The position numbers and the translations under genes are program-made. A stretch of DNA of 64,000 bases from IMG/VR virus record IMGVR_UViG_3300033463_000077; one strand, 5' to 3'. This document shows positions 29,756 to 58,106 of the stretch, piece by piece. The DNA comes from a virus (Duplodnaviria; Heunggongvirae; Uroviricota; Caudoviricetes). The notes below the pieces were generated by a model. That model was not told the DNA's origin, ran no database searches, and saw only the letters and a program-made list of their open reading frames with translations. Numbering within the stretch: position 1 is the first letter of the stretch; every line of letters begins with the position of its first letter.

Positions 29756-29782
29756 ATAAATTAAAATAAGGAGAATGTGACA

Positions 29783-30901
29783 ATGATTTTCAGAAAATAT
29801 AGTGAAATTGAAAATTCTTACAATTCCAAATTTGTGAAGGTGCTCAGAGAGCAAGGTTTTGCTGATCCTTCCATTGAATATGTTTGTGAAAATAAAATTG
29901 ATGGAAGCAATGTTCAGGTTTCTATTGATGAACATGGACATTTCAATTTTGGTTCTCGTTCTCAGTTTTATCCAGCTCATTCTGATTTCCAGGGATCTAA
30001 GGTTTGTTTTATTAAAGAAAGAATCAAAGACAAACTGATTAGAATGAAAGAACTCATTGCAAAGGATCAGAAAGTAATTGATATTTTGAATAAACTTGCC
30101 GGGATTGATCCTGAAAAAGAAGATATTCAGAAGAAATTTATTCTTACTGTTTATGGAGAACTTTGTGGCGGAATGTATCGTCACCCGGATGTGGAAAAGG
30201 TAAAAGGTGCAATTAAAATTCAGGGCAGAGTTGATTATCACCCTGATAATAAGTTTGTTCCCTTTGATATTGTTCTTCGCTGGCCAAATGGTTCCACTAT
30301 TATGTTGTTTGATCAGGATGAAGTTGTGAAATATTGTAAAGAAGTTGATCTTCCTTATCCGATCATTTTGTTTAGAGGCACCTTTGATGAATGTCTTGAA
30401 TTTCCTGTTGAATTTGTTGATAAAACTGGTAACATTCTTTGGGGTCTTCCGATTATTGAAAACAATATCTCCGAAGGTATTGTTATCAAACCTAATAAAG
30501 CCTTATTCAAAGGAAATAAAGAAAGAGTTATTCTGAAAAAGAAAGGTGAAAGATTCAAAGAACGTATTTCTAAGAATAAAGAACCTAAAGAGGTTTTACC
30601 GATGAATGATGTGGAAAAGAAGTGGTTTGATACTATTTCTGAATTCGTCACTGAATCCCGTCTGATGAGTGTTCTCAGTAAAATAGATTGTACAAAGCTA
30701 AATGATAAATGCTTTGGTATGATTCTTGGAGCCTTCCTTAAAGATCTTTGGAATGATTTCAATAAGGAATATGAACAGGATATTGAAAAAGAACTTTCTG
30801 AAAATTCTGATTTCAATTTTGACAAAGTGAGGAAGGAAGCATCCAAATATGTTTCCAAATTCATTCAGCCTCATTTCCTTAAGCTTATTGGAAGAGCTTA
30901 A
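29783..30901 (+). CDS. RNA ligase 2 family (T4 Rnl2-like nucleotidyltransferase)
   Basis: N-terminus MIFRKYSEIENSYNSKF matches T4 Rnl2 MFKKYSSLENHYNSKF; motif I ENKIDGSN (KxDGxN). Confidence 0.8.
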   Translation: MIFRKYSEIENSYNSKFVKVLREQGFADPSIEYVCENKIDGSNVQVSIDEHGHFNFGSRSQFYPAHSDFQGSKVCFIKERIKDKLIRMKELIAKDQKVIDILNKLAGIDPEKEDIQKKFILTVYGELCGGMYRHPDVEKVKGAIKIQGRVDYHPDNKFVPFDIVLRWPNGSTIMLFDQDEVVKYCKEVDLPYPIILFRGTFDECLEFPVEFVDKTGNILWGLPIIENNISEGIVIKPNKALFKGNKERVILKKKGERFKERISKNKEPKEVLPMNDVEKKWFDTISEFVTESRLMSVLSKIDCTKLNDKCFGMILGAFLKDLWNDFNKEYEQDIEKELSENSDFNFDKVRKEASKYVSKFIQPHFLKLIGRA

Positions 30902-31402: not shown

Positions 31403-32605
31403 ATGAGAAACAATGAAGAAGTTAATTCCGTAAAAGTTGTCGCAGTTGGCATCGCAATTCTCGTAGCACTTGTCATTGCAATTACTTTTGGTAGTGCATT
31501 TATTGGAAAGAACAACGTCCAGAACTTTCAGGTCATCCAGTCACCCACTGGAACCATTAAGATCCAGTCCGGTGGTGGTTATTATATGAAATGTTTCGAC
31601 ACTGTCTGGACTTATCCGAAGGTGAATCCTGTTTTCTTCTCCAATGAGGAAAAGGAATCCAAGGATCAGGATGGAGTACAGGTTGTATTCTCCAACAAAG
31701 GTAAGGGTGATATCTCCTCACAGGTTGTATATCGAATCTTTACTGACAACGTAAAGATGCTAAAGATGCATGAATACGCTCATGGCAATATTGATGTAAT
31801 TGACAACCTTGTTCTGTCAAAGCTGAAGGATATTGCAATGACTCACTCTTCAAACATTACCTCTTCACAGGCAATTGAAGATCGAGAACAGCTTGCCACA
31901 AATATTCGTAAGGACTTCATTAACAATAAGGAACTCGCTGAGATGGGTATTATTGTTGAACAGTTCTCCATTACGAAGATCAATTTCGATAAGCAGACAG
32001 AAGATCTATTCAAGAAACAGCAGGAAGCAGACCTTCAGAAGAAGACAGCTGAAGCTGAAAAGCTAAACCTTCAGATGCAGAAGGAAAAGACCGTTGCTGA
32101 ATATGAAAAGCAGGTTGCTGAATCAAAAGGTAAGGCAGAGGTTGAAAAGATCAAGGCTGTTACTGATGCTGAACGCCAGAAGGAACTTGCTGAAATCAAG
32201 GGAAAGCAGGAAGTTGCTGTTGCCGAACTTGAAAAGCAGAGAGCTGCAATTGAAGCAAATAAGAAACTTGAGGTCGTAGAGATTCAAAAGAAAGAGGAAA
32301 AGGCAAAGCTGGAAGTTATTCAGATTCAGTCCGAGCAAAAGGTTGCTGAAGCCAAGGCTAAGGAACAGCAGATTAAACTGTCTGGTGCAATTTCTGAAGA
32401 GCTGAAGTACCGCCTGGATGTTGAGAAGGAAACAAAGATCGGAGTAGCAAAAGCTCTTGCTGATGGCTTTGCAAAGGTTACTCTTCCGAAGACCTTCATC
32501 ATGGGAAACGGTATTGATGGTGGTAAAGGTATGAATGCCATGGAGACTTTCTTCAATCTGATGAATGTTCAGAAGGCTGAAGAAATCAACAAAACCGCAA
32601 AGTAA
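31403..32605 (+). CDS. SPFH/Band-7 (flotillin/HflK-like) domain membrane protein
   Basis: N-terminal TM, PHB-like core, long E/K/A/Q coiled-coil repeats (EVEKIKAVTDAERQKELAEIKGKQEVAVAELEKQRAAIEANK). Confidence 0.65.
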   Translation: MRNNEEVNSVKVVAVGIAILVALVIAITFGSAFIGKNNVQNFQVIQSPTGTIKIQSGGGYYMKCFDTVWTYPKVNPVFFSNEEKESKDQDGVQVVFSNKGKGDISSQVVYRIFTDNVKMLKMHEYAHGNIDVIDNLVLSKLKDIAMTHSSNITSSQAIEDREQLATNIRKDFINNKELAEMGIIVEQFSITKINFDKQTEDLFKKQQEADLQKKTAEAEKLNLQMQKEKTVAEYEKQVAESKGKAEVEKIKAVTDAERQKELAEIKGKQEVAVAELEKQRAAIEANKKLEVVEIQKKEEKAKLEVIQIQSEQKVAEAKAKEQQIKLSGAISEELKYRLDVEKETKIGVAKALADGFAKVTLPKTFIMGNGIDGGKGMNAMETFFNLMNVQKAEEINKTAK

Positions 32606-33842: not shown

Positions 33843-34250
33843 ATGAAGAATGAAATGAAAAACTTCCTTTCCGCTGTCAATTTTGAAGGTCCGATTATGA
33901 ACAGTGATAATGCCGTTTTTCTTTTTACCGTAAAGAATGGTGAAAAGGTCACATTGATCAAAACAGGTCTCTTTGATGGAAATGAAGAATTTATTCGTTT
34001 GAGGGTTAGTTCCACTTATGGAAAAATGGATACCAATCAGTATACCGTCATTAAACGAAATGGAGAAAGCTACAGTTGGCAAAGTGGAGGTGGGTCTCAT
34101 ACTTTGGTTTCTGATCAAATGAACGCAATGGCAAAATTGATTTCCGAGACCGTTGATGAAAAGATTTGTGGAAACTTTTTTCCATCAAATGTACAAGGAA
34201 AACTTTCAGAGGTTATGAAAGAAGAATTCTTCAAGAAATTTTCTGAATAA
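33843..34250 (+). CDS. hypothetical protein (135 aa)
   Basis: ORF, RBS AAAGGAGAAGATAAA. Confidence 0.5.
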   Translation: MKNEMKNFLSAVNFEGPIMNSDNAVFLFTVKNGEKVTLIKTGLFDGNEEFIRLRVSSTYGKMDTNQYTVIKRNGESYSWQSGGGSHTLVSDQMNAMAKLISETVDEKICGNFFPSNVQGKLSEVMKEEFFKKFSE

Positions 34251-34252
34251 GA

Positions 34253-34295
34253 TTTACTTTCACAATGAAGATGTTATAATATAAATATACAGAAT
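34253..34295 (+). promoter_or_regulatory. promoter motif copy (variant) driving intron-tRNA
   Basis: ATTTACTTTCACAATGAAGATGTTATAATATAAATATA. Confidence 0.5.
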
Positions 34296-34334
34296 GGAAT
34301 TTAATTATTCATTCTGATGCTAATTGAAAACATA

Positions 34335-34660
34335 TGGCCCCGTAACCGAATTGGCATAGGTACTTGACTGAGAATTCTTGGTAAAAGCAAGAATCACTGG
34401 GTCGCTAAATTGGAAACGATTTAGTAAGTAGATTCCCTAAAACGGTTAAACCTTTCAAAGAAATTTGATCGTGTAATCCCGTGCTAAATCAAAGAGTAAT
34501 CTTTGTAAATGTGTAGAGAGCAGAGAGGAATCACCTAAAAGCAGTAATGCTCATGGTTATAGTGTGCTCCAGACCACAAACTGATTATTATCAGGCATGG
34601 AAACATGTAGGGGTAAGCAAAATCAAGGTTTTACGGGTTCGACTCCCGTCGGGGCTACCA
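34335..34660 (+). tRNA. intron-containing tRNA (exons 34335-34368 and 34618-34660); spliced anticodon loop CUCAAAA (anticodon CAA, Leu-type) with Leu-like D-loop GAAUUGG but short variable loop
   Basis: manual fold: acceptor GGCCCCG/CGGGGCU, D ACC-GAAUUGGCAUA-GGU, anticodon stem CUUGA/UCAAG split by 249 nt, T ACGGG-UUCGACU-CCCGU, CCA encoded. Confidence 0.6.
34369..34617 (+). ncRNA. 249-nt group-I-like intron in tRNA anticodon loop
   Basis: insert follows U in 5' exon and ends with G; candidate IGS GGUC pairs with exon GACU (U-G at splice site); size typical of tRNA group I introns. Confidence 0.45.
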
Positions 34661-34671
34661 TTTTGATAATC

Positions 34672-34712
34672 AAACACTTTACATAGAAATGTGTAAAGTG
34701 TTTTCTTTTATA
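34672..34712 (+). terminator. rho-independent terminator after intron-tRNA
   Basis: ACACUUUACA-UAGAAAUG-UGUAAAGUGU + UUUCUUUUA. Confidence 0.55.
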
Positions 34713-34940
34713 TTAAAAAAATCTTTTAATTCTCTTAAAAAGAATTTATTATATAATATATAAACATTCAGATAAAAGCTTTGGTTGAGCTTCGAATGAT
34801 GTAATTATTTCGTTCTCCTTGGTAATTACATTTTCTGAATGTTTTTTTATTATAAAGCTTGAGCGGCTTCTTCGTTTAATTCTCTTATTATCATAATAGT
34901 TTAATCTCTTAAAATTGATCTTAAATATATTTATAAGTTG
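34710..34940. repeat. AT-rich non-coding region with nested inverted repeats and TTAAT(T)CTCTTA iterons; possible origin/regulatory region
   Basis: IR AACATTCAGA/TCTGAATGTT, inner IR ATGTAATTA/TAATTACAT, AAGCTT palindromes, three TTAATCTCTTA-like repeats. Confidence 0.4.
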
Positions 34941-34978
34941 TTTACTTTTTGAATAATTCTGTTATATTCAAATATAGA
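34941..34978 (+). promoter_or_regulatory. conserved early promoter motif copy
   Basis: motif match. Confidence 0.6.
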
Positions 34979-34999
34979 AAAAAGAAAGGAAACTTAAAA

Positions 35000-35404
35000 A
35001 TGATCTCTCCGAACTTTAATATTGTTGATGTCAAAGATCAATTCAAAGCAAATCTTCCGGAATGTTTTGATATGTTTGGCAATCATTATTCTGACGAAGA
35101 TGTGGAACGAATGGCAAAAAAATTGTGGGATGAATTCGGAGTTGATATCATTTGCGATGTCGAATCAGTGTTCAATGGATGTCCGGACTTTACGGATGAA
35201 TATGAAAGGTCCATAGCTGTTCTGACTGAATATGTTAAAAAGCTTAAAGAGATCCATACGTTTGAAACCAACAATAATGATTATTCCATTGAACGTTATT
35301 GGGCAGATATTGTCAGGGTTGCGATGATGGAAAATGCACAGAGTCTTTTTAATGCAAAAGGACCTTGTGATTATTATGGTGAATTGATCGAAGAGGAGGA
35401 TTAA
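35000..35404 (+). CDS. hypothetical acidic protein (134 aa)
   Basis: track ORF trimmed to MISPNFNIVD after RBS AAAGGAAAC; promoter 34941-34978. Confidence 0.5.
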   Translation: MISPNFNIVDVKDQFKANLPECFDMFGNHYSDEDVERMAKKLWDEFGVDIICDVESVFNGCPDFTDEYERSIAVLTEYVKKLKEIHTFETNNNDYSIERYWADIVRVAMMENAQSLFNAKGPCDYYGELIEEED

Positions 35405-35407
35405 AAA

Positions 35408-35521
35408 TGGATCTTGCTGGAGCGGCTGTTCTAATTTTTTGTACGCCATTAGGTTGGATTGGTATTATGGCATTTGGCTTTTCAATGTCAATGATTATTG
35501 AAGCTTGGAAAAGAAAGTAAG
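35408..35521 (+). CDS. small membrane peptide (37 aa)
   Basis: hand-found ORF MDLAGAAVLIFCTPLGWIGIMAFGFSMSMIIEAWKRK, RBS GAGGAGGATTAAAA. Confidence 0.35.
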
Positions 35522-35558
35522 TTTACTTTTCAAAAAGTAATGTTATATTAAAATATAA
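35521..35558 (+). promoter_or_regulatory. conserved promoter motif copy driving ncRNA unit
   Basis: motif match. Confidence 0.6.
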
Positions 35559-36002
35559 TCGGAAAACAAAATCCGATGCTGATTGAAAAATTTTATGACG
35601 TAGTAGCCCAAGGAGAGGCAGCGGCTCAGACGCCGCCAAAGTATTGGTTATACTCCAATCTACGTCCCCAATTTACGTTATCCGATGGACAGATTGGTTT
35701 AAGTTGATCTTGAGAATTAGTTTAAGAGTGAAAACATCCTACTGGATTTAGGAAAATGCATGGTGCAAGGTCCGGCATTCTCAGTTGCGTCAAGATAGGC
35801 AAATGGTCAGCCTAAGACGAGATTAATTTTAATCAATTTTCCAACGTTGTTAGAAGTCTGCAATAGTTTAACTAAAACAGTCGGACGGGATCCGATGATT
35901 CAGATCAGATTGCAACGAATTCTGATTGCAGTTACTTAGGTTTTCTTGAATGACCAATCAGGAATCCAAACAACAATGGATTACATCACCTTTTTTTTTT
36001 TC
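35559..36002 (+). ncRNA. ORF-free transcription unit (~440 nt), GCUGAUUGAAAA-leader ncRNA family member
   Basis: motif promoter 35521-35558, no ORF of 60 aa or longer, hairpin + T12 terminator at 35962-36002, long-range complementarity GACGUAG/CUACGUC. Confidence 0.45.
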
Positions 36003-36012
36003 CGAAAAAGAG

Positions 36013-36050
36013 TTTACTTTTTCAAGAATGAAGTTATATTAAAATATAAT
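36013..36050 (+). promoter_or_regulatory. conserved promoter motif copy driving large ncRNA unit
   Basis: motif match. Confidence 0.6.
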
Positions 36051-36960
36051 CGGAAAACAAAATCCGATGCTGATTGAAAATTGAAAATTTCAGGTTGGTT
36101 ATAAAAATACCGATGTGATGCAAAAGATTAGCTACTTGAGAGACTGTCAGCTCAAAACAGTGGGAGACATCCTGAGATCATATCAATGGTGGTGTTGGTT
36201 AAAGTCCAATCATTGGTTCTTGTTATATTATAATCAATCCCGGAGAACTTCATCGTAAATATCCGGCAAGGTAAACCTTGAAAATGTTGAAAACGGTATT
36301 GAAATTAGATTGGTTATTGAAAAATAATCAAATCCCGGAGAACTTCATCGTAAATATCCGGCAATTGTTCAGCGATTGAAATGTTAAAAACGGTTAAGCC
36401 TGGAAATCAAAACCGGGCGATTCAATCGCCATTAAATGTGGCGATAGCTATCAGAGAACTGGAAGGTGTTTCGGTGAGATCACTGATCCTAAGGAAATGA
36501 ATAGTGGCAGATAGAAGGTTATATTGATTGATTTACTTCTTCTGTTGGAAGCAGCAAAATCCGTTGTAAGAGCGGTGCCTAGATAATCACAGAGATGATT
36601 ATCTAATTATTTAAAATTAAAATCAATCGAGGCAGTTGAGGAAATATAGATTCTGTCTCCCGGCTCTGATTGAGTCTGAAACTAAAGACCTCATAGATGA
36701 GGGTGATGTATTCAGCCGATGAAAAATCCGGTTAGGAGTCGCTGCAGAACTCCAAAACCTCACTTCAGAAGGAAACTGAAGGATCCGACATCCGGAAAAC
36801 AAACCAAATATTAATGAGCAGTGAAAAGGACTCCAACCTTCATCTGTTGACCGTGGATTACCTGGAAGCGGTCAGTCCTCTTGGAGCTTTTATTATGAGG
36901 ATTCGATTTACGGGGATGATTAAAGCCGAATGGGATTCCATCGGCCTTTTTCATTTTATA
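36051..36960 (+). ncRNA. large ORF-free transcription unit (~900 nt), GCUGAUUGAAAA-leader family; candidate large structured (ornate) RNA
   Basis: motif promoter 36013-36050, same leader as 35559, two 34-bp direct repeats, many local hairpins, no convincing ORF (track ORF 36814..36999 has no RBS and ends inside promoter). Confidence 0.4.
36236..36373 (+). repeat. two 34-bp direct repeats (AATCCCGGAGAACTTCATCGTAAATATCCGGCAA) ~104 bp apart inside large ncRNA region
   Basis: seen directly; each can form CCGGA..UCCGG hairpin. Confidence 0.65.
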
Positions 36961-36961
36961 G

Positions 36962-36999
36962 GTTTACTTTTTGAATTCAGCTGTTATATTAAAATATAA
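36962..36999 (+). promoter_or_regulatory. conserved early promoter motif copy
   Basis: motif match. Confidence 0.6.
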
Positions 37000-37024
37000 A
37001 GAAAGCATCAAAAGGAGAATTAAA

Positions 37025-37870
37025 ATGAAATATCTTATTCTTTCTGATTTACATATCTCTGTTGACTCTGTTACTTCTCAATTCAAACTTGAAAAATACA
37101 AAAGAATTTTAAAGAACAATTTACCTGAGAGTTATGATATCGTTCTTATTTCAGGTGATGTATTTGAACACAGAGTTCCACATTATGTAAATGTTTTTGA
37201 AACTCTGCAATACTTTTTTGATTTCAAACCGGCTGTTTTTTGTTTAGGGAATCATGAATTTGCTTATGAAGATCATGATTCTGTATTGAAAACTTACAAA
37301 GCTCAATATGAAGTTTTCAAGTCAAAATGGCCTAATGGATCGGTTTGTTGTCTTGATATTTCAGGATATTATGATTTTGATAATGCCAGAATTGTTGGAA
37401 ATGTATTTTGGTATGATTGGTCTTTAAATCATTGCAGAACTTTAATGAAAGGTGAAATTGTTGATGGTTGGTTGGATGCAACTATTGAAAATTTCGATGC
37501 AATGAAAGAACATGAAAATTGTAAAAAACAAATCATGAATTCTCTTTCTGAAGAGAAGAATCATATTCTTTTGACTCACACTGTTCCTTATGAAAAGTTG
37601 AATATGTTTAGTATTGAAGAACCAAATTCTCCATACAATTCTTATTCAGGGTGTGCGGACTTTTTGAATGAGATCAAAGATAAAAACTTTAAGTTTGCAT
37701 TTTGTGGTCATACTCATAAAAAAGCAAATTTAGAAGTATATGATATCAATTGTTTGAACATTGGAAATGATTATTATTTCAAAACATTCAGAATTGATTG
37801 GGCGCTTTTTGATATGGACAAAGATTTGAATATTTTTAATATTCTATTCAGTAAACAGTTTACTTTTTGA
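37025..37870 (+). CDS. calcineurin-like metallophosphoesterase
   Basis: MPP motifs DLH, ISGDVFEH (GDxxD), GNHE, LLTHTVPY, CGHTHKK; start MKYLIL after RBS AAAAGGAGAATTAAA. Confidence 0.7.
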   Translation: MKYLILSDLHISVDSVTSQFKLEKYKRILKNNLPESYDIVLISGDVFEHRVPHYVNVFETLQYFFDFKPAVFCLGNHEFAYEDHDSVLKTYKAQYEVFKSKWPNGSVCCLDISGYYDFDNARIVGNVFWYDWSLNHCRTLMKGEIVDGWLDATIENFDAMKEHENCKKQIMNSLSEEKNHILLTHTVPYEKLNMFSIEEPNSPYNSYSGCADFLNEIKDKNFKFAFCGHTHKKANLEVYDINCLNIGNDYYFKTFRIDWALFDMDKDLNIFNILFSKQFTF

Positions 37871-38524: not shown

Positions 38525-38607
38525 GCCAGTGTAGCTCAGCGGTAGAGCTGCCGAAAAGGCTAAACCAGAGATGGTGAAGGTCGGAGGTTCGAGCCCTCCC
38601 ACTGGCT
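38525..38607 (+). tRNA. tRNA-like gene with normal acceptor, D and T arms but a 34-nt anticodon/variable region; isotype undetermined
   Basis: acceptor GCCAGUG/CACUGGC, D GCUC-AGCGGUA-GAGC, T GGAGG-UUCGAGC-CCUCC; central region GCCGA...UCGG does not form a canonical 17-nt anticodon arm. Confidence 0.5.
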
Positions 38608-39389: not shown

Positions 39390-39665
39390 ATGAAATATCA
39401 AATTCAAAAAACATTTACTCTTTTAGATTTGAATGAACATATTATCGAACATAATGAGACAAAAGATCCTATTATTTTTGATAATTTTGCAGATGTATGG
39501 GGAGCTGTTGCAGATGAAGCCTTCAAATCTTTTCAAGAAGCACAAAAGATTGACCAATATGCTGAAATGAACGGTTTTTCAAAACATGTTTTAATTAAAT
39601 ACAATTTAGAAAAACCTTATAAGGGGAAAATTGAAGCTAAGCTTGAAATTAAAGAAGTGCAATAA
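39390..39665 (+). CDS. hypothetical protein, paralog family G (FADVWGAVAD)
   Basis: track ORF trimmed to MKYQIQK after RBS AAGGTGGAATAAA. Confidence 0.5.
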   Translation: MKYQIQKTFTLLDLNEHIIEHNETKDPIIFDNFADVWGAVADEAFKSFQEAQKIDQYAEMNGFSKHVLIKYNLEKPYKGKIEAKLEIKEVQ

Positions 39666-40841: not shown

Positions 40842-41795
40842 ATGAATAATGATAAACTGATCAAGATGTTCAAAGACCTTTCCCTTTATGAAGAATCTTT
40901 GAAACGGCATTTTCCTTCCAAAGCATATTTGAATGCAATTTCCACAATCAAAAAATTGCCCTTTGATATTACTGATGTTGAACAGGTCAAAGGGCTTTCT
41001 GGTTTTGGAAAGGGCCTTATTGAAAAAGTTGAATCTTTCTTGAAAACAGGGAGCTTTAAACGATATGAAGAATTCAAAAGATCAGATTTTGCCAAACTTA
41101 TTGAGATTTCAAACATTAAAGGAATTGGAGTCAATAAAGCGAAAGAGCTCGCGGCAGCTGGAATCAAAAGTCTTGAAGAGCTTAAAGAAGCGGTTAAAGA
41201 ACTTAATATTGGGGATATGATTGGAACCTCCGCAGTTAAGTATATCAACTCTATCAAAGTTGGTCTTCAGTTTGAAGCTCATACTGAAAAGACCAGAATG
41301 ACCATTCAAGAACATGATGAGATTGCTGATCCTATTATTGTAGATTTGCTCAGGAAACATGCAAATATTCTTGTTTCCTTCGCGGGCTCTAGAAGGCGGT
41401 GGAACCAGCTTGATCAGAATTACACCGTAGGCGATATCGACATCATTATAGGTGTTCCGGAAAGTGAATTGAATACCTTTTATAAGAATCTTCCCCAGTA
41501 TCTTGATGAAGTTGTTATGAATGGCCAGACCAAAGTTTCCGGAATTAAGAACAAAAGACAGATTGACTTCAGAATTGTCAACAGAGATAATTATGGTGCA
41601 CTGCTTCTCCATGCAACCGGCCCTATGAATTGGAATATCAAACTCAGAAAAATTGCGATCAGCAAAAATATGATTCTCAATGAGTATGGACTTTTTGAAA
41701 GAGATACAAGAAAACTTATTGCATCCACTGAAGAAGATATTGTATACACTTTGATCGGCACCTATATCCCAGCTGATAGAAGGGATAATTTTTGA
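40842..41795 (+). CDS. DNA polymerase family X (Pol beta-like nucleotidyltransferase)
   Basis: HhH IKGIGVNKAKEL; catalytic GSRRRWNQLDQNYTVGDIDIII (GSxRRG..GDxDxLL pattern); YGALLLHATGPMNWN; C-term EEDIVYTLIGTYIPADRRD. Confidence 0.7.
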   Translation: MNNDKLIKMFKDLSLYEESLKRHFPSKAYLNAISTIKKLPFDITDVEQVKGLSGFGKGLIEKVESFLKTGSFKRYEEFKRSDFAKLIEISNIKGIGVNKAKELAAAGIKSLEELKEAVKELNIGDMIGTSAVKYINSIKVGLQFEAHTEKTRMTIQEHDEIADPIIVDLLRKHANILVSFAGSRRRWNQLDQNYTVGDIDIIIGVPESELNTFYKNLPQYLDEVVMNGQTKVSGIKNKRQIDFRIVNRDNYGALLLHATGPMNWNIKLRKIAISKNMILNEYGLFERDTRKLIASTEEDIVYTLIGTYIPADRRDNF

Positions 41796-46095: not shown

Positions 46096-46124
46096 AATAA
46101 TTGAAAATTAAAGGAGACAAATAT

Positions 46125-47990
46125 ATGAGCCGCATCCAAGAACTTGAAGCTGAAATCCGTCATCACAATGATCTTTATTGGAATGGAAAAGATCTTGAAA
46201 TTTCTGATATTGAATATGATGCTCTTTGTCGAGAACTTGCTGAGCTTGATCCTGACAATGAGCTTATTCTGAATTTTGGAAAGAAAGATTTGACTGGAAA
46301 CGAAAAGCTTATCAAGCACTCCAAAAAGATGTTGAGTCTTGGAAAGATTTATTCCAAAGAAGACCTGCTTAAATGGGTTAAAAAAGTTTCCAGAACCAAT
46401 CAAGAAGAATTTCTTATTCAGCCGAAATATGATGGAATGTCCGGACTTTTGGAAAATGGGACTCTTAGTTCACGTGGTGATGGTGAATATGGTCAGGATT
46501 ATACTGATAAACTGAAGTTGATTGAATTTGATACTGATAAGAAGATTGATCCAAGTCGTGATAGTCTACTTGGAGAGATTATAATCAAAAACAGTTATTT
46601 CAAAAGCATCTTTGGTGAAGTGAAGTCAAAATCTGGTATTCCGTTTAAGAATCAACGAAACGGAATTGCCGGTATTCTTGGAACCGATGATGTGGACTTC
46701 TATTACAATCAGGGTGCGAAAATTACTTTTGTTGATTACGACAAAGAATCCACTACTACAAATTGCTTCCACTTTTCTGAAGCATGGGATGCTGTTGTAG
46801 ATCACATTCTTAAGAATACTGATTATCCTCTTGATGGTATCGTGATTAAGCTCAAAGATCAAGCATATGCCGAATCTCTTGGATATACTACTCATCATCC
46901 TCGTGGAGCTGTAGCATTCAAATTTACAAATCAGACTGCTGTATCAAAACTTATTGATGTTGAGTGGGGAATGGGAAAACAGCAGATTTCAGCTGTTGGT
47001 GTTATTGAGCCTGTTGAAATTTCTGGAACTACTATTCGAAGAGTTAAGCTTCAGCTTACAAAGCCAAAGAGTTCCGCTGTTGAAACTTGTCTGATTGATG
47101 GAAGCCTTCAGATAGGTGATACGGTGGTAGTTGAACGCGCTGGAGATATTATTCCTCATATCATTTCCTCCAAACCAGGTGTGAATAGAAAGAGAGTTTA
47201 TATTGATAAATGTCCTTTCTGTGGATCTGATACTTTCATTAATGAAACAAGTGTTCAGTGTGGAGCCTTAAATGGAAGATGCATTGAAACTGAAGTTCAG
47301 GAGCTTTATTGCTCCATCGTTACTCTTGGATTTAAGAATGTTGGTGAAGCCTATATCAGACTTATTGTTAATGATCCTAATCTTAAAGTTCGTTACATTG
47401 CCGATCTCTTTGATCTGAAGCCTGAAGATATGAAGCTGAAAGAATATGGAACTCGTAAGAAAGAAATTTTCTTTGAAGAGATTGAAAAAGCAAAAAAGAA
47501 TGCAACAAAAGATATGGTTCTCGCTTCAATGAATATTCCTACTGTTGGAAAAACTGTATCAAAAATTATTGTAGAGAACTTCAACTGGGAAGATGTTATT
47601 GAAGGAAGATTTGATTCTCACGATTATGAAAAAGTCGATGGAATTGGACATATAATTGCCGATTCACTTGAAACATACTTAGGTCCTGGATCTTGGGCCA
47701 CTGACAATCTTCGTAGAATGTCCGCAATATTTTCATTCAAGAAAGTTGAAAAGAAATCTGAAAATTCAAATGGAATGACAATTTGTTTCACAGGAAAAAT
47801 GGAAAATAAAAGATCAGTTATGGAACAGATTGCAAAAGATCGTGGATTCACTCCTATGGATCATGTTGATAAGAATCTTTCCATTTTGGTTTGTGCAGAT
47901 CCTAACAGTGGTTCCGGAAAACTTCAGAAGGCTGCTAAGTACGGAACAAGAATCATTTCTGAAAAAGATTTCATGGATGGAAAATATTAA
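46125..47990 (+). CDS. ligA: NAD-dependent DNA ligase
   Basis: N-terminal Ia domain ELEAEIRHHNDLYWNGKDLEISDIEYDALCRELAELD, adenylation motif I QPKYDGMSG, Zn-finger CPFCGS...C, C-terminal BRCT; start MSRIQELE after RBS AAAGGAGACAAATAT. Confidence 0.85.
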   Translation: MSRIQELEAEIRHHNDLYWNGKDLEISDIEYDALCRELAELDPDNELILNFGKKDLTGNEKLIKHSKKMLSLGKIYSKEDLLKWVKKVSRTNQEEFLIQPKYDGMSGLLENGTLSSRGDGEYGQDYTDKLKLIEFDTDKKIDPSRDSLLGEIIIKNSYFKSIFGEVKSKSGIPFKNQRNGIAGILGTDDVDFYYNQGAKITFVDYDKESTTTNCFHFSEAWDAVVDHILKNTDYPLDGIVIKLKDQAYAESLGYTTHHPRGAVAFKFTNQTAVSKLIDVEWGMGKQQISAVGVIEPVEISGTTIRRVKLQLTKPKSSAVETCLIDGSLQIGDTVVVERAGDIIPHIISSKPGVNRKRVYIDKCPFCGSDTFINETSVQCGALNGRCIETEVQELYCSIVTLGFKNVGEAYIRLIVNDPNLKVRYIADLFDLKPEDMKLKEYGTRKKEIFFEEIEKAKKNATKDMVLASMNIPTVGKTVSKIIVENFNWEDVIEGRFDSHDYEKVDGIGHIIADSLETYLGPGSWATDNLRRMSAIFSFKKVEKKSENSNGMTICFTGKMENKRSVMEQIAKDRGFTPMDHVDKNLSILVCADPNSGSGKLQKAAKYGTRIISEKDFMDGKY

Positions 47991-56873: not shown

Positions 56874-58106
56874 ATGTTTAGAAACTTTGTTAAAGAATAT
56901 TTGAATGAACCTGGAAAAAACCTTGATACTCTAAAAGAAGAGTTTGGTATTTCTTATCGTATTTTCAATGCAAAGAATGGAGATCTTGTCATTCTTTCTT
57001 ATTCTCAGATTGATTCTCCAAAAACCAATCCGATCGTTAGGATGTGTCGTGGATTGGTTCTTGAGATGAATACTTGGGACATTGTTTCCTATCCTTTTTA
57101 TCGTTTTTACAATTTTGAAGAAGTTCCAGAAGAACGTCTGAAATTCAATTGGAAGAAAGCAATGGCTACTGAAAAAATTGATGGTTCATTGCTGGAAGTC
57201 TTTAATTACAAAGGTGAATGGCTTATTTCCACCCGTTCAATGATCGGTGGAGAAAATGCAGTTAATGCTTTGGGTACTACGGTTAATGATATTTTTGATA
57301 TGGCAATTTCTCCAATGACTCGTAAGGAATTCTTTGAAAGACTTATTCCAAATATTTCTTATATTTTTGAAATTGTCAGTCCTTTCAATCAAATCGTTAC
57401 TCAGTGGGATGCCGCTCATCTTTATTTGATTGGTGGAAGAAGCAAAACTTTTAATGAAGAAGAATATACTTTTATCGATCTTTATGATTTGTTTGATTCT
57501 GCAATGAAAAACATTGTTAGAATTCCTAAAGTCATTTCTCTTTATGATAAAGAATCTGATGACTTTGTTGGATTTGAAAAAATGAAGATGCTTGCGGAAA
57601 CTGGAAATTCTCAGGATGAAGGTTTTGTTGTGGTGGATTTTGACAGTCTTGATAAAACTACCAATTCCTTTCCGAGAGTGAAAGTTAAAAATTCTGCTTA
57701 TGTTGCTCTTCATCATTTGAGAGGTTCTTTGGAGAATGGAGCTCCGCAATATGAAAGAATTCTTACTTTGATTTACAATAAAGAAGATGCAGAAGTTCTT
57801 TCTAATCTTCCTCATATGAAGCCTTACTTTGATGAAGTCAAAGAAAAGTTTAATAAATTCCTTGAAGAGTTTAATTCTGATTTGAAATTGATTGAAGCTG
57901 AATTGAATGATCCTCAGAAATTTATTGATCATCCTGAATTGAAGAAAGATTTTGCAATGAAGATCAAAGATTCAAAATATAAGAATTTGTTTTTCTTCAT
58001 GCTGAAGTCTTGTACCAAAACTTTCAATGAAATGGTTGATTATCAGATCAGCAAGTCAGTTGATGTTTTTGATAAACTTTGGGACTCTTATATTTCCAAG
58101 ATGTAA
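56874..58106 (+). CDS. RNA ligase 1 family (T4 Rnl1/RnlA-like)
   Basis: SYRIFNAKNGDLVILSYSQ..RMCRGLVLE..YRFYNFEE..EKIDGSL aligns with T4 Rnl1 TYRIFSYNYASYSDW..ECRGIMFE..MEKFFNLNE..TKEDGSL (motif I KxDGSL). Confidence 0.75.
   Translation: MFRNFVKEYLNEPGKNLDTLKEEFGISYRIFNAKNGDLVILSYSQIDSPKTNPIVRMCRGLVLEMNTWDIVSYPFYRFYNFEEVPEERLKFNWKKAMATEKIDGSLLEVFNYKGEWLISTRSMIGGENAVNALGTTVNDIFDMAISPMTRKEFFERLIPNISYIFEIVSPFNQIVTQWDAAHLYLIGGRSKTFNEEEYTFIDLYDLFDSAMKNIVRIPKVISLYDKESDDFVGFEKMKMLAETGNSQDEGFVVVDFDSLDKTTNSFPRVKVKNSAYVALHHLRGSLENGAPQYERILTLIYNKEDAEVLSNLPHMKPYFDEVKEKFNKFLEEFNSDLKLIEAELNDPQKFIDHPELKKDFAMKIKDSKYKNLFFFMLKSCTKTFNEMVDYQISKSVDVFDKLWDSYISKM

What the first reader, a model, noticed from the sequence alone, without database searches (positions are those of the whole stretch)
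34335..34660. Phage tRNA gene interrupted by a 249-nt group-I-like intron in the anticodon loop, with atypical isotype features
The exons fold into a complete cloverleaf with encoded CCA: acceptor GGCCCCG/CGGGGCU, T-arm ACGGG-UUCGACU-CCCGU, anticodon stem CUUGA/UCAAG. The anticodon loop is split after U33 by 249 nt. The insert ends in G and contains a candidate internal guide GGUC that can pair with the exon end GACU (U-G at the splice site). It begins with an extended P1-like hairpin UUCUUG-GUAAAAG-CAAGAA. The spliced loop would be CUCAAAA (anticodon CAA, Leu). The D-arm (3-bp stem, GAAUUGG loop) is Leu-like, yet the variable loop is only 5 nt, unlike any canonical tRNA-Leu. tRNA group I introns are known mainly in cyanobacteria, plastids and a few proteobacteria, and are rare in phage tRNA genes.
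Basis: partly seen in the sequence, partly recalled or inferred. Interest (0 to 1): 0.8.

Follow-up and report, generated by a model that had tools for sequence, protein, structure and literature searches.

The report
Self-splicing intron in phage leucine tRNA
A leucine tRNA gene of a large uncultured phage is interrupted by a genuine 248-base group I (self-splicing) intron that a sister phage lacks exactly; both the intron type and the oddly short tRNA shape turn out to be recurrent but poorly annotated features of phage genomes, not one-offs.

Summary
The gene spans 34336-34660 (+). The intron is 248 nt (34370-34617), not 249, and lies between U33 and C34.

The group I reading is supported:
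- A covariance model built from 35 other viral tRNA introns, without this one, matches 34391-34617 over its full length at 95.3 bits (E 4e-24). The match ends at the predicted 3' splice site.
- Every core helix (P1-P9) is complementary, and P7 carries two compensatory changes.
- A metagenome contig from a sister phage carries the same gene and flanks with exactly these 248 bp missing. That fixes the boundaries as U|G...G|C.

Rfam's RF00028 misses this intron, but it also misses half of its relatives.

The short variable loop is real but not unique. The spliced tRNA belongs to a conserved phage lineage of 73-77-nt tRNAs with Leu anticodons only (CAA, UAG, UAA). They keep the E. coli LeuRS determinants (A73, A15-U48, G18G19, A20a). 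T5-like phages have them too, annotated as tRNA-Leu.

They also occur in the cultured jumbo phage Atu_ph07, unannotated.

Verdict: a real, probably active intron and a new member of a known kind. Splicing and charging were not tested.

The parts
34253..34280 (+). Promoter-like site TTTACT-16 nt-TATAAT with TG before the -10. It is one of 17 copies of a conserved motif in the window.
34336..34369 (+). 5' exon of tRNA-Leu(CAA): acceptor 5' strand, D-arm, anticodon stem 5' strand, C32 and U33.
   Evidence: Identical to the intron-less alleles L137 and, from position 8, L128.
34365..34369 (+). P1 5' strand (exon UGACU). U34369 forms the U.G pair at the 5' splice site.
34370..34617 (+). Group I intron, 248 nt, of the IC tRNA-intron type (IC3 by my knowledge). 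It has no ORF.
34374..34394 (+). 7-bp hairpin inserted in the P1 loop (AUUCUUG-GUAAAAG-CAAGAAU). It is absent from most relatives.
   Evidence: The covariance-model match starts at 34391, inside this hairpin's 3' strand, so most of the hairpin lies outside the family model.
34400..34404 (+). Internal guide sequence GGUCG (P1 3' strand). The UG just before it (34398-34399) can form a 2-bp P10 with 3' exon CA.
   Evidence: The same GGGUCGC guide is seen in viral locus L120, whose intron also follows U33.
34405..34424 (+). P2, 8 bp, with a GAAA tetraloop.
34431..34436 (+). P3 5' strand GAUUCC. It pairs with GGAAUC at 34527-34532.
   Evidence: In the family, P3 is paired in 35 of 35 sequences at all 6 pairs, with 2-5 pair types each.
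34442..34482 (+). P4 (34442-45/34479-82), P5 (34451-52 with 34473 and 34471; U34472 bulged) and an extended P5a hairpin UCAAA-GAAA-UUUGA (34455-34468).
34490..34505 (+). P6, 6 bp, with a GUAA tetraloop.
34518..34522 (+). P7 5' strand GAGCA. It pairs with UGCUC at 34565-34569. Two pairs differ on both sides from the family consensus GACUA/UAGUC. The invariant G-C pair is kept.
34527..34532 (+). P3 3' strand GGAAUC.
34533..34557 (+). P8 (ACC/GGU) with an inner helix AGCA-GUAA-UGCU and a receptor-like internal loop CCUAAA...CAUGG.
34565..34569 (+). P7 3' strand UGCUC.
34573..34614 (+). 3' domain: long-range helix ACCAC/GGGGU (one AxG mismatch), P9 CUGAU-UAUU-AUCAG, and P9a CAUG-GAAA-CAUG.
34617..34617 (+). 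Terminal G of the intron (omega-G) at the 3' splice site.
34618..34660 (+). 3' exon: C34 A35 A36 (anticodon CAA), anticodon stem 3' strand, variable loop GUUUU, T-arm, acceptor 3' strand, A73 and CCA.
34672..34712 (+). Intrinsic-terminator-like hairpin (14 bp) followed by a T-rich tail.

Best explanation
Window 34336-34660 is a single transcription unit, with its own phage promoter and terminator, that encodes a precursor of a phage tRNA-Leu(CAA). A 248-nt group I intron sits between U33 and C34. It belongs to the compact bacterial tRNA-intron family related to the tRNA-Leu(UAA) and Azoarcus tRNA-Ile introns. I call this subgroup IC3 from my own knowledge.

Inferred mechanism, following the established group I pathway:
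1. The exon end UGACU pairs with the guide GGUCG to form P1, with a U.G pair at the splice site.
2. A free guanosine bound in P7 attacks after U33.
3. The terminal G (34617) then enters the G site.
4. The 3'-OH of U33 attacks after it, joining the exons into a 77-nt tRNA with anticodon loop CUCAAAA.

The mature tRNA is a phage-lineage leucine tRNA without the long variable arm. It keeps the determinants that E. coli LeuRS uses, so it is most likely charged with leucine by the host enzyme and reads UUG.

The intron is optional: a sister phage lacks it precisely. It carries no endonuclease gene.

Shown here: homology, the structure-compatible sequence, the exact boundaries and the intron-less allele. 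Inferred: catalytic activity, aminoacylation and decoding.
For: - ARAGORN with intron search gives the cloverleaf and a 248-nt intron.
- An nhmmer profile of 65 unique viral tRNA introns, without this one, hits 34398-34617 at E 3.5e-18 and ends at the predicted splice site.
- Covariance model R1, built from 35 non-redundant viral introns with a hand-checked structure, hits 34391-34617 at 95.3 bits, E 3.6e-24, covering model positions 1-201 of 201.
- The family structure is well supported. 93.4% of cells are paired, against 75.2% in shuffles and 27-44% when partners are slid. 30 of 45 pairs show changes on both sides.
- Six of 12 family members tested pass Rfam RF00028 gathering at 59-68 bits. 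This ties the family to curated group I introns.
- In this intron all helices P1-P9a are complementary, with a single AxG mismatch. P7 is GAGCA/UGCUC against the consensus GACUA/UAGUC.
- The minimum-energy fold recovers the loop hairpin, P2, P6, P7, P8 and P9, with z -2.65.
- Intron-less allele: L137 matches the window up to 34369 and from 34618 on (99.6%), so exactly 34370-34617 is missing.
- An intron-less homologue in IMG/VR contig L128 is identical across the junction.
- The same sequence occurs in three independent assemblies.
- Promoter and terminator flank the gene.
- Leu identity. The related class I-shaped tRNAs carry only CAA, UAG or UAA anticodons, always have A73, and covary in the acceptor, D and T stems. 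A15-U48, G18G19 and A20a are present (read). These are the E. coli determinants, and the long arm is dispensable there (PMC9976931).
Against: - Rfam RF00028 gives no hit, even at E<=10 on a 501-nt stretch.
- There is no experimental or transcript evidence of splicing.
- P10 is only 2 bp and one pair of the 3' long-range helix is broken.
- The closest sampled relative is only about 75% identical, and only over the 3' half.
- The covariance model aligns P4, P5 and P6 imperfectly because of a 2-nt deletion and the P5a insertion.
- No cellular LeuRS has been shown to charge this phage tRNA type.
- The phage assignment rests on gene content and relatives. No structural gene was identified in the window.
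Confidence: 0.85

Rival explanations
1. The intron is a decayed, catalytically dead relic. The interrupted gene would then be a tRNA pseudogene that the phage tolerates.
For: Rfam RF00028 does not detect it. One mismatch lies in the 3' long-range helix and P10 is minimal. The sequence is divergent, at most about 75% identical to its nearest sampled relative. Sister phages do without the intron.
Against: All core helices are intact. Changes relative to the family are compensatory (P7, P3, P4), which points to selection on structure. The conserved joining regions (GUGUAGAGA, CCAGACCACAAAC, GGUAAG) are kept. The gene keeps a promoter, a terminator and a perfect cloverleaf. The sequence is identical in three independent assemblies. 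RF00028 also misses half of the intact relatives.
Confidence: 0.08
2. The intervening sequence is removed by proteins, for example an endonuclease plus the phage's own RNA ligases Rnl1 and Rnl2, as in archaeal or eukaryotic tRNA splicing. It would not be removed by self-splicing.
For: The window encodes T4-type Rnl2 (29777-30901), Rnl1 (56874-58106) and a metallophosphatase (36971-37870). Lak-phage tRNA introns could not be classified by their discoverers.
Against: The insert is a full-length member of a group I family by covariance model and has the U/omega-G boundaries. No splicing endonuclease was seen. In my knowledge, T4-type ligase sets are tRNA-repair systems against anticodon nucleases.
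Confidence: 0.02
3. The spliced RNA is not a leucine tRNA. The missing long variable arm would mean it is charged with another amino acid, or that it serves as a decoy or regulator rather than in decoding UUG.
For: Cellular tRNA-Leu carries a long variable arm everywhere except animal mitochondria. The host and its LeuRS are unknown.
Against: A search pattern that left the anticodon free returned tRNAs with Leu anticodons only (CAA, UAG, UAA), 13 in the metagenome scan and 6 on viral contigs. All the class I-shaped ones have A73, and their stems covary. The E. coli LeuRS determinants A73, A15-U48, G18G19 and A20a are all present, and the long arm is dispensable for E. coli LeuRS. A related phage (L126) has a class II tRNA-Leu(UAA) with the same D-loop, G1.U72, A73 and CCA.
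Confidence: 0.1
4. The 5' and 3' halves are independent elements (a split tRNA or a chance juxtaposition) rather than one interrupted gene.
For: Default tRNA finders do not call the gene.
Against: An uninterrupted copy of the same gene with the same flanks exists in L137. Uninterrupted homologues exist in L128, L138, L140 and L150.
Confidence: 0.01

Closest known systems
[quoted passage not shown]
   Same: It has the same compact architecture (P1-P9, no ORF, about 200-250 nt) and sits in the anticodon loop of a Leu tRNA. It shares conserved blocks (GUGUAGAGA..AGA, ACCUAA, CCAGACCACAAAC, the GAAA hairpin, and the terminal ..UAGNGGUAAG), as shown. The Nostoc PCC 7120 intron self-splices in vitro (PMC13011429).
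   Different: It is inserted after U33 rather than U34. The wobble base is C, so the usual U34.G pair is impossible. The guide sequence is therefore different (GGUCG). It has an extra 7-bp hairpin in the P1 loop and an extended P5a. Its P7 is GAGCA/UGCUC. Its host is a phage and its host tRNA is class I-shaped.
Azoarcus sp. BH72 tRNA-Ile(CAU) group I intron (205 nt)
   Same: It belongs to the same core family. The search motif was derived from the block shared by this intron and my recollection of the Azoarcus sequence. Viral members carrying the block I recall as the Azoarcus P3'/P8 (GGCACCCACCUAA) fall in the same alignment. Self-splicing and structures are established (PMC13168695).
   Different: The Azoarcus type sits at 36/37 and lacks the ACCAC/GUGGU long-range helix of the Leu type. 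The similarity to Azoarcus itself rests on my memory of its sequence, not on a retrieved record.
Bacterial tRNA-Leu(CAA) genes with the same intron family
   Same: Among the 120 bacterial genome hits returned for the core motif, 12 are tRNA-Leu(CAA) with 220-261-nt introns.
   Different: Those are class II (85-87 nt). Their intron lies at 34/35 after C34, so the splice-site pair is C-G. Here it lies at 33/34 and the canonical U.G is kept.
Cyanobacterial tRNA-fMet group I intron (position 33/34)
   Same: It has the same insertion position, 33/34 (PMC13011429).
   Different: The isotype differs. Relatedness was not compared here.
Phage tRNA introns: Lak megaphage 'enigmatic' tRNA introns, and unannotated tRNA-Leu(UAA) introns in Agrobacterium phage Atu_ph07 and huge phages LR756501 and LR756511
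   Same: These are phage-encoded tRNA genes interrupted in the anticodon loop, with intron-plus and intron-minus variants among related phages. Atu_ph07, LR756501 and LR756511 match model R1 at 100-202 bits.
   Different: The Lak introns were not classified and were not examined here. The Atu_ph07 and LR7565xx examples are class II tRNA-Leu(UAA) with the intron at 34/35.
Class I-shaped tRNA-Leu of T5-like phages (e.g. Salmonella phage beppo, NC_092682 83293-83368)
   Same: It has the same D-arm (GAAUUGGCAUA loop, 3-bp stem), the same 5-nt variable loop GUUUU, A73 and CCA. It is about 86% identical to positions 7-64 of the spliced tRNA and is annotated tRNA-Leu.
   Different: Its anticodon is UAA and it has no intron.

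Membership tests
Group I intron (IC tRNA-intron family) | The 5' exon ends in U, paired with G of an internal guide sequence (P1). | tested here: met
   UGACU (34365-69) pairs with GGUCG (34400-04), with U34369.G34400 at the splice site.
Group I intron (IC tRNA-intron family) | The intron ends in G (omega-G). | tested here: met
   G34617. The boundary is fixed independently by the intron-less allele L137.
Group I intron (IC tRNA-intron family) | Conserved core: P3-P7 pseudoknot, P4-P6 domain, P8 and joining regions. | tested here: met
   Covariance model of 35 relatives: 95.3 bits, E 3.6e-24, full length. All helices are complementary. The family structure covaries.
Group I intron (IC tRNA-intron family) | Guanosine-binding G-C pair in P7. 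| tested here: met
   G34518-C34569 corresponds to the invariant G-C column pair 154/211 of the family. Whether it binds guanosine cannot be tested here.
Group I intron (IC tRNA-intron family) | Reaches the Rfam RF00028 gathering score. | tested here: not met
   No RF00028 match at E<=10. Only 6 of 12 related viral introns reach it, so this is a limit of the model's sensitivity and not a structural failure.
Group I intron (IC tRNA-intron family) | Guanosine-dependent self-splicing. | not testable with these tools
   Needs an in vitro transcript assay or RNA data.
Mobile (homing) group I intron | Encodes a homing endonuclease. | tested here: not met
   The 248-nt intron is occupied throughout by ribozyme helices and has no ORF. 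The neighbouring ORF 34949-35404 has no family match.
Mobile (homing) group I intron | Presence/absence polymorphism at an otherwise conserved site. | tested here: met
   L137 lacks exactly the intron. L128, L138, L140 and L150 are intron-less homologues.
Bacterial-type tRNA-Leu | Leu anticodon after splicing. | tested here: met
   CAA, in loop CUCAAAA.
Bacterial-type tRNA-Leu | Discriminator A73; Levitt pair A15-U48; G18G19; A20a (the E. coli LeuRS determinants). | tested here: met
   Read directly from the D-loop G13-A14-A15-U16-U17-G18-G19-C20-A20a-U-A21, variable loop GUUUU ending in U48, and A73. The determinants are listed in PMC9976931.
Bacterial-type tRNA-Leu | Long variable arm (class II shape). 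| tested here: not met
   The variable loop is 5 nt. So this is not a canonical class II tRNA-Leu. It belongs to a phage lineage of class I-shaped Leu tRNAs.
Bacterial-type tRNA-Leu | Charged with leucine by LeuRS. | not testable with these tools
   Needs an aminoacylation assay.
Archaeal/eukaryotic protein-spliced tRNA intron | Bulge-helix-bulge motif at the splice sites and an associated splicing endonuclease. | not tested
   No formal BHB search was run. The splice sites are accounted for by P1 and omega-G, and no endonuclease family was seen.

The most novel reading that the evidence does not exclude
Phages maintain a private lineage of leucine tRNAs stripped of the long variable arm, some with optional self-splicing introns in the anticodon loop, as a counter-defence. 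Such tRNAs would still be charged by host LeuRS. They would escape host nucleases that recognise or cut the variable arm or anticodon loop of class II tRNAs. The intron could additionally mask the anticodon loop, or time tRNA maturation through its guanosine dependence. The evidence does not exclude this reading. The lineage is conserved and, in the collections I searched, turned up only on viral or phage-like contigs. The window also carries a T4-type tRNA-repair gene set. A defence system that cleaves the variable loop of tRNA-Tyr has been reported (abstract of PMC13096335). None of this is tested here.
Probability: 0.15. Interest if true: 0.7.

Novelty: new member of a known kind. Interest (0 to 1): 0.4.

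Why it matters
This is a clean, fully delimited case of a group I intron inside a phage tRNA gene. It comes with a natural intron-less allele, so it is directly testable by in vitro splicing or RT-PCR across the ACUUGACU-CAAAAUCAAG junction.

It also exposes three annotation gaps:
- Standard tRNA finders and Rfam's group I model both miss this gene.
- The same intron family sits unannotated in tRNA genes on about 95 of the viral contigs scanned and in at least one cultured jumbo phage. A 2014 review had stated that phage introns were all in protein-coding genes.
- The host tRNA belongs to a phage lineage of leucine tRNAs without the long variable arm. This runs against the textbook statement that tRNA-Leu is class II everywhere except animal mitochondria.

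The biology is an extension of known systems, not a new mechanism.

Tried and rejected
- **Rfam.** Searches at gathering and at E<=10 found no group I hit. I judged this a sensitivity problem after testing relatives.
- **BLAST against deposited phages.** BLASTN of the whole gene found no match.
- **Exact-match scans of IMG/VR.** Scans for the 5' exon, the intron core and a CAA-specific junction pattern found nothing.
- **Neighbouring protein.** A related-locus scan of viral contigs with the SPFH protein found nothing. Four metagenome relatives of that protein showed that synteny is not conserved, and only L126 carried a tRNA intron.
- **Stop-codon recoding.** I considered this as the reason for the few long ORFs. 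TGA-read-through 'ORFs' are mosaics running across repeated promoter motifs, so standard code with many small genes fits better.
- **Free-standing homing endonuclease.** I looked for one next to the intron. ORF 34949-35404 has no Pfam or PHROG match.
- **Alternative splice registers.** Registers giving anticodon GAA (Phe) or GAG were considered. They violate the U/omega-G rules and are excluded by the intron-less allele.
- **Literature.** A search for a description of the class I-shaped phage tRNA-Leu found nothing in the held library.

Full report
**1. The observation**

Reading 34100-34900 and running ARAGORN with intron search confirms a tRNA gene at 34336-34660 on the + strand. Its anticodon loop is interrupted after U33 by 248 nt (34370-34617).

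All quoted stems are correct:
- acceptor GGCCCCG/CGGGGCU, with G1.U72
- a 3-bp D-stem ACC/GGU with loop GAAUUGGCAUA
- anticodon stem CUUGA/UCAAG
- variable loop GUUUU
- T-arm ACGGG-UUCGACU-CCCGU
- A73 and an encoded CCA

Default ARAGORN and the Rfam tRNA model do not call the gene.

**2. Is the insert a group I intron?**

Rfam's Intron_gpI model (RF00028) gives nothing, even at E<=10 on a 501-nt stretch.

A block of the insert (GUGUAGAGAGCAGA...ACCUAA) resembled what I remember of the Azoarcus tRNA-Ile intron core. In 95 cases ARAGORN places the motif inside an intron-containing tRNA gene. Most are tRNA-Leu(UAA). Others carry CAU (Met/Ile), UCU (Arg), UGU (Thr) and further anticodons.

Of 12 such loci given to Rfam, only 6 reach the RF00028 gathering score, at 59-68 bits against a threshold of 50. 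RF00028 is therefore about half-sensitive on this class, and its miss here is not decisive.

A profile HMM of 65 unique viral introns, excluding this one, hits 34398-34617 at E 3.5e-18 and ends at the predicted 3' splice site.

I then aligned 35 introns that are less than 85% identical to each other (A2) and wrote the structure by hand: P2, P3, P4, P5, P6, P7 as a pseudoknot, P8, a long-range 3' helix, P9 and P9a. I checked it in two ways:
- P3 is paired in 35 of 35 sequences at all six positions, with two to five pair types each.
- Overall, 93.4% of cells are paired. Shuffled controls give 75.2%, and sliding the partners gives 27-44%. Thirty of 45 pairs change on both sides.

The covariance model R1 built from this alignment matches the window at 34391-34617 with 95.3 bits, E 3.6e-24, across all 201 model positions. 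Part of that score comes from the 18 nt used to fish out the family. The rest of the model is independent of this sequence.

Direct inspection shows that every helix in this intron is complementary, with one AxG mismatch in the 3' long-range helix. P7 reads GAGCA/UGCUC where the family consensus is GACUA/UAGUC. That is two compensatory pairs, and the invariant G-C pair is kept.

Compared with its relatives the intron has two additions: a 7-bp hairpin in the P1 loop (34374-34394) and an extended P5a with a GAAA loop. Together these account for its being 248 nt rather than about 200 nt. The minimum-energy fold recovers most hairpins (z -2.65).

**3. Boundaries and the intron-less allele**

A pattern taken from the D-arm and anticodon stem, leaving the anticodon free, found an uninterrupted 77-nt tRNA-Leu(CAA) in IMG/VR contig L128. 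It is identical to the spliced exons from position 8 to 48 and differs in the acceptor and T stems by compensatory changes.

The metagenome scan then returned L137 (JGI Ga0310786_10474137). This contig carries the same gene with the same flanks:
- L137 235-326 aligns to window 34269-34369.
- L137 327-563 aligns to window 34618-34854 at 99.6%.
- Exactly 34370-34617 is absent.

The junction has no repeated base, so the boundaries are unambiguous: exon ...GACU | G...intron...G | CAAAA... exon. This excludes alternative registers (anticodon GAA or GAG) and excludes independent half-genes. It also shows that the intron is optional among close relatives.

The intron-containing version is identical in three independent assemblies.

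**4. How it most likely works**

The 5' splice site is defined by P1, formed between exon UGACU and guide GGUCG, with U34369.G34400 at the splice site. A 2-bp P10 is possible. By the established group I pathway, exogenous guanosine attacks after U33. The terminal G34617 then occupies the G site, and U33's 3'-OH attacks after it. That produces the mature loop CUCAAAA. None of this chemistry was tested here.

The gene has its own promoter-like site (TTTACT-16-TATAAT at 34253-34280) and a terminator-like hairpin (34672-34703). The promoter belongs to a motif found 17 times in the window.

The intron has no ORF, and no endonuclease family was found next door. How it spread is therefore open.

Placement after U33 rather than U34 fits the anticodon. 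In tRNA-Leu(UAA) genes the splice-site U.G uses U34. Here the wobble base is C. Viral locus L120 has the same guide (GGGUCGC) and the same 33/34 position. Bacterial tRNA-Leu(CAA) genes with this intron family keep position 34/35 and so have C-G at the splice site.

**5. The 'atypical' tRNA**

The 5-nt variable loop is real, but the tRNA is not an orphan. Eleven distinct class I-shaped sequences were collected. They have these features in common:
- Only Leu anticodons (CAA, UAG, UAA), although the search pattern did not constrain the anticodon.
- A73 in every case.
- A 5-nt variable loop that ends in U.
- Covariation in the acceptor, D and T stems.

BLAST of the spliced tRNA against deposited phages finds 335 records, mostly T5-like Salmonella and Escherichia phages. 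In Salmonella phage beppo the hit is an annotated 76-nt tRNA-Leu(UAA) with the same D-arm and the same GUUUU loop.

A related phage contig (L126) carries a conventional class II tRNA-Leu(UAA) with the same D-loop, G1.U72, A73 and CCA. Its own 353-nt intron of this family lies at 34/35.

The E. coli leucine identity set is A73, A15-U48, G18G19 and A20a, and the long arm is dispensable (PMC9976931). All of these are present here. The tRNA is therefore most likely charged by host LeuRS, but this is inference. [quoted passage not shown] The phage lineage is an exception that I could not find discussed in the held library.

**6. Context and what is known**

The window encodes T4-type Rnl2 and Rnl1, an NAD-dependent DNA ligase, a PolX-like polymerase and a metallophosphatase. 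It also holds nine or ten tRNA or tRNA-like genes. Relatives of its SPFH protein lie on contigs up to 308 kb. This fits a large uncultured phage, although no structural gene was identified in the window.

The literature, as held in this library:
- A 2014 review states that all phage introns then known were in protein-coding genes, despite many phage tRNA genes (PMC3984707).
- In 2018 Lak megaphages were reported to have tRNAs with 'enigmatic introns', and the authors suggested such introns may be common in large phages (bioRxiv 10.1101/356790).
- A 2026 survey found 333 group I introns in bacterial tRNA genes of 18 phyla. It lists 33/34 (fMet), 34/35 (Leu) and 36/37 (Arg) as common positions (PMC13011429).

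My own scans add the following:
Of the hits, 105 lie in intron-containing tRNA genes, and 12 of those are tRNA-Leu(CAA).
- Among deposited phages, the cultured Agrobacterium jumbo phage Atu_ph07 and the huge phages LR756501 and LR756511 have unannotated tRNA-Leu(UAA) genes with introns that match R1 at 100-202 bits.
- Pelagibacter phage HTVC120P and a crAss-like Kolpuevirus carry the same intron family in protein-coding genes.

**7. Verdict**

The finding is real and the group I interpretation is right. It is a divergent new member of a known intron family in a known kind of location. Its host is a phage and its host tRNA is a short-arm leucine tRNA, both under-described but not unique.

I put the probability that this is a genuine group I intron of this family at about 0.9. 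The probability that it still splices is somewhat lower. Interest is moderate. A specialist would not be astonished, but the case is unusually well delimited and points to systematic annotation gaps.

Noticed in passing
window, 17 sites (e.g. 34253, 34941, 35522, 36013, 36963, 37859, 38626, 56582, 58108 on +; 27787, 24338, 22369, 19398, 11187, 5377 on -): A conserved promoter-like motif, TTTACTTTTTGAA-N6-TGTTATATT-N-AAATATA, is repeated 17 times. All copies left of about 28 kb are on the - strand and all copies to the right are on the + strand, matching the GC-skew switch. It precedes many small ORFs and the tRNA-Leu gene.
   Followed up: partly
window 35597-35670 (+), within 35590-36010: ARAGORN calls a tRNA-like gene with an 8-nt anticodon loop ('caga') and an unusual T-loop (TTATACT). 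It lies in a roughly 421-bp segment that is absent from the sister contig L137. That segment is flanked by 77-nt direct repeats (35513-35589 and 36004-36080).
   Followed up: no
window 38525-38607 (+): The Rfam tRNA model scores 45 bits here, but default ARAGORN misses it. With intron search it is called tRNA-Ser(aga) with an 11-nt insert. The anticodon arm looks aberrant (GCC-GAAAA-GGC followed by a CCA-GAGA-UGG hairpin).
   Followed up: no
window 34855-35401 (+), including ORF 34949-35404: This roughly 550-bp segment carries its own promoter motif and a 151-aa ORF with no Pfam or PHROG match. It is absent from the sister contig L137, so it is a second indel right next to the intron-containing gene.
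   Followed up: partly
window 29777-30901, 36971-37870, 46101-47990, 56874-58106, 40842-41795: These genes encode T4-type RNA ligase 2, a metallophosphatase, an NAD-dependent DNA ligase, T4-type RNA ligase 1 and a PolX-like polymerase. Together they look like a nucleic-acid (tRNA) repair gene set interspersed with the tRNA genes.
   Followed up: partly
L153, L175, L177, L209, L221, L226, L228, L230, L243, L263, L264, L272 (bacterial genomes, e.g. Bordetella tumbae, Achromobacter sp.): These are class II tRNA-Leu(CAA) genes with the same intron family at 34/35. Their 5' exon ends in C, so the splice-site pair in P1 would be C-G instead of the near-universal U.G.
   Followed up: no
L274 (Agrobacterium phage Atu_ph07, MF403008.1, about 112.8-113.3 kb): An unannotated tRNA-Leu(UAA) with a 278-nt intron of this family (R1 171 bits). 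A CDS annotated 'hypothetical protein' overlaps it.
   Followed up: partly
L273 (Pelagibacter phage HTVC120P, MH598807.1 19.6-19.8 kb); L275 (Kolpuevirus 'frurule', OQ198718.1): Introns of the same family (R1 157 and 76 bits) lie between two CDSs both annotated 'capsid protein', and between a GIY endonuclease gene and a replicative helicase gene. These look like unannotated group I introns in protein-coding genes.
   Followed up: no
L026, L053, L059, L065, L066, L073, L102 (73 nt) and L044, L103 (75 nt), IMG/VR contigs: This is a second kind of short tRNA with anticodon UAA and an intron of this family at 34/35. It has an ordinary 4-bp D-stem (GCCC-AGCGGAAGA-GGC...), unlike the Leu-like D-arm lineage. 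Its identity is unclear.
   Followed up: no
L126 13993-14067 (NCBI GCA_045633265.1, JAZQYB010000444.1): A related phage contig encodes a tRNA with anticodon CUA (an amber suppressor, called 'Pyl' by ARAGORN). This suggests that TAG is reassigned in some relatives.
   Followed up: no
window 39606-39657 and 32220-32284 (+): Weak partial matches of model R1 (P4-P6 part only; E 0.09 and 0.2). They are probably chance.
   Followed up: no
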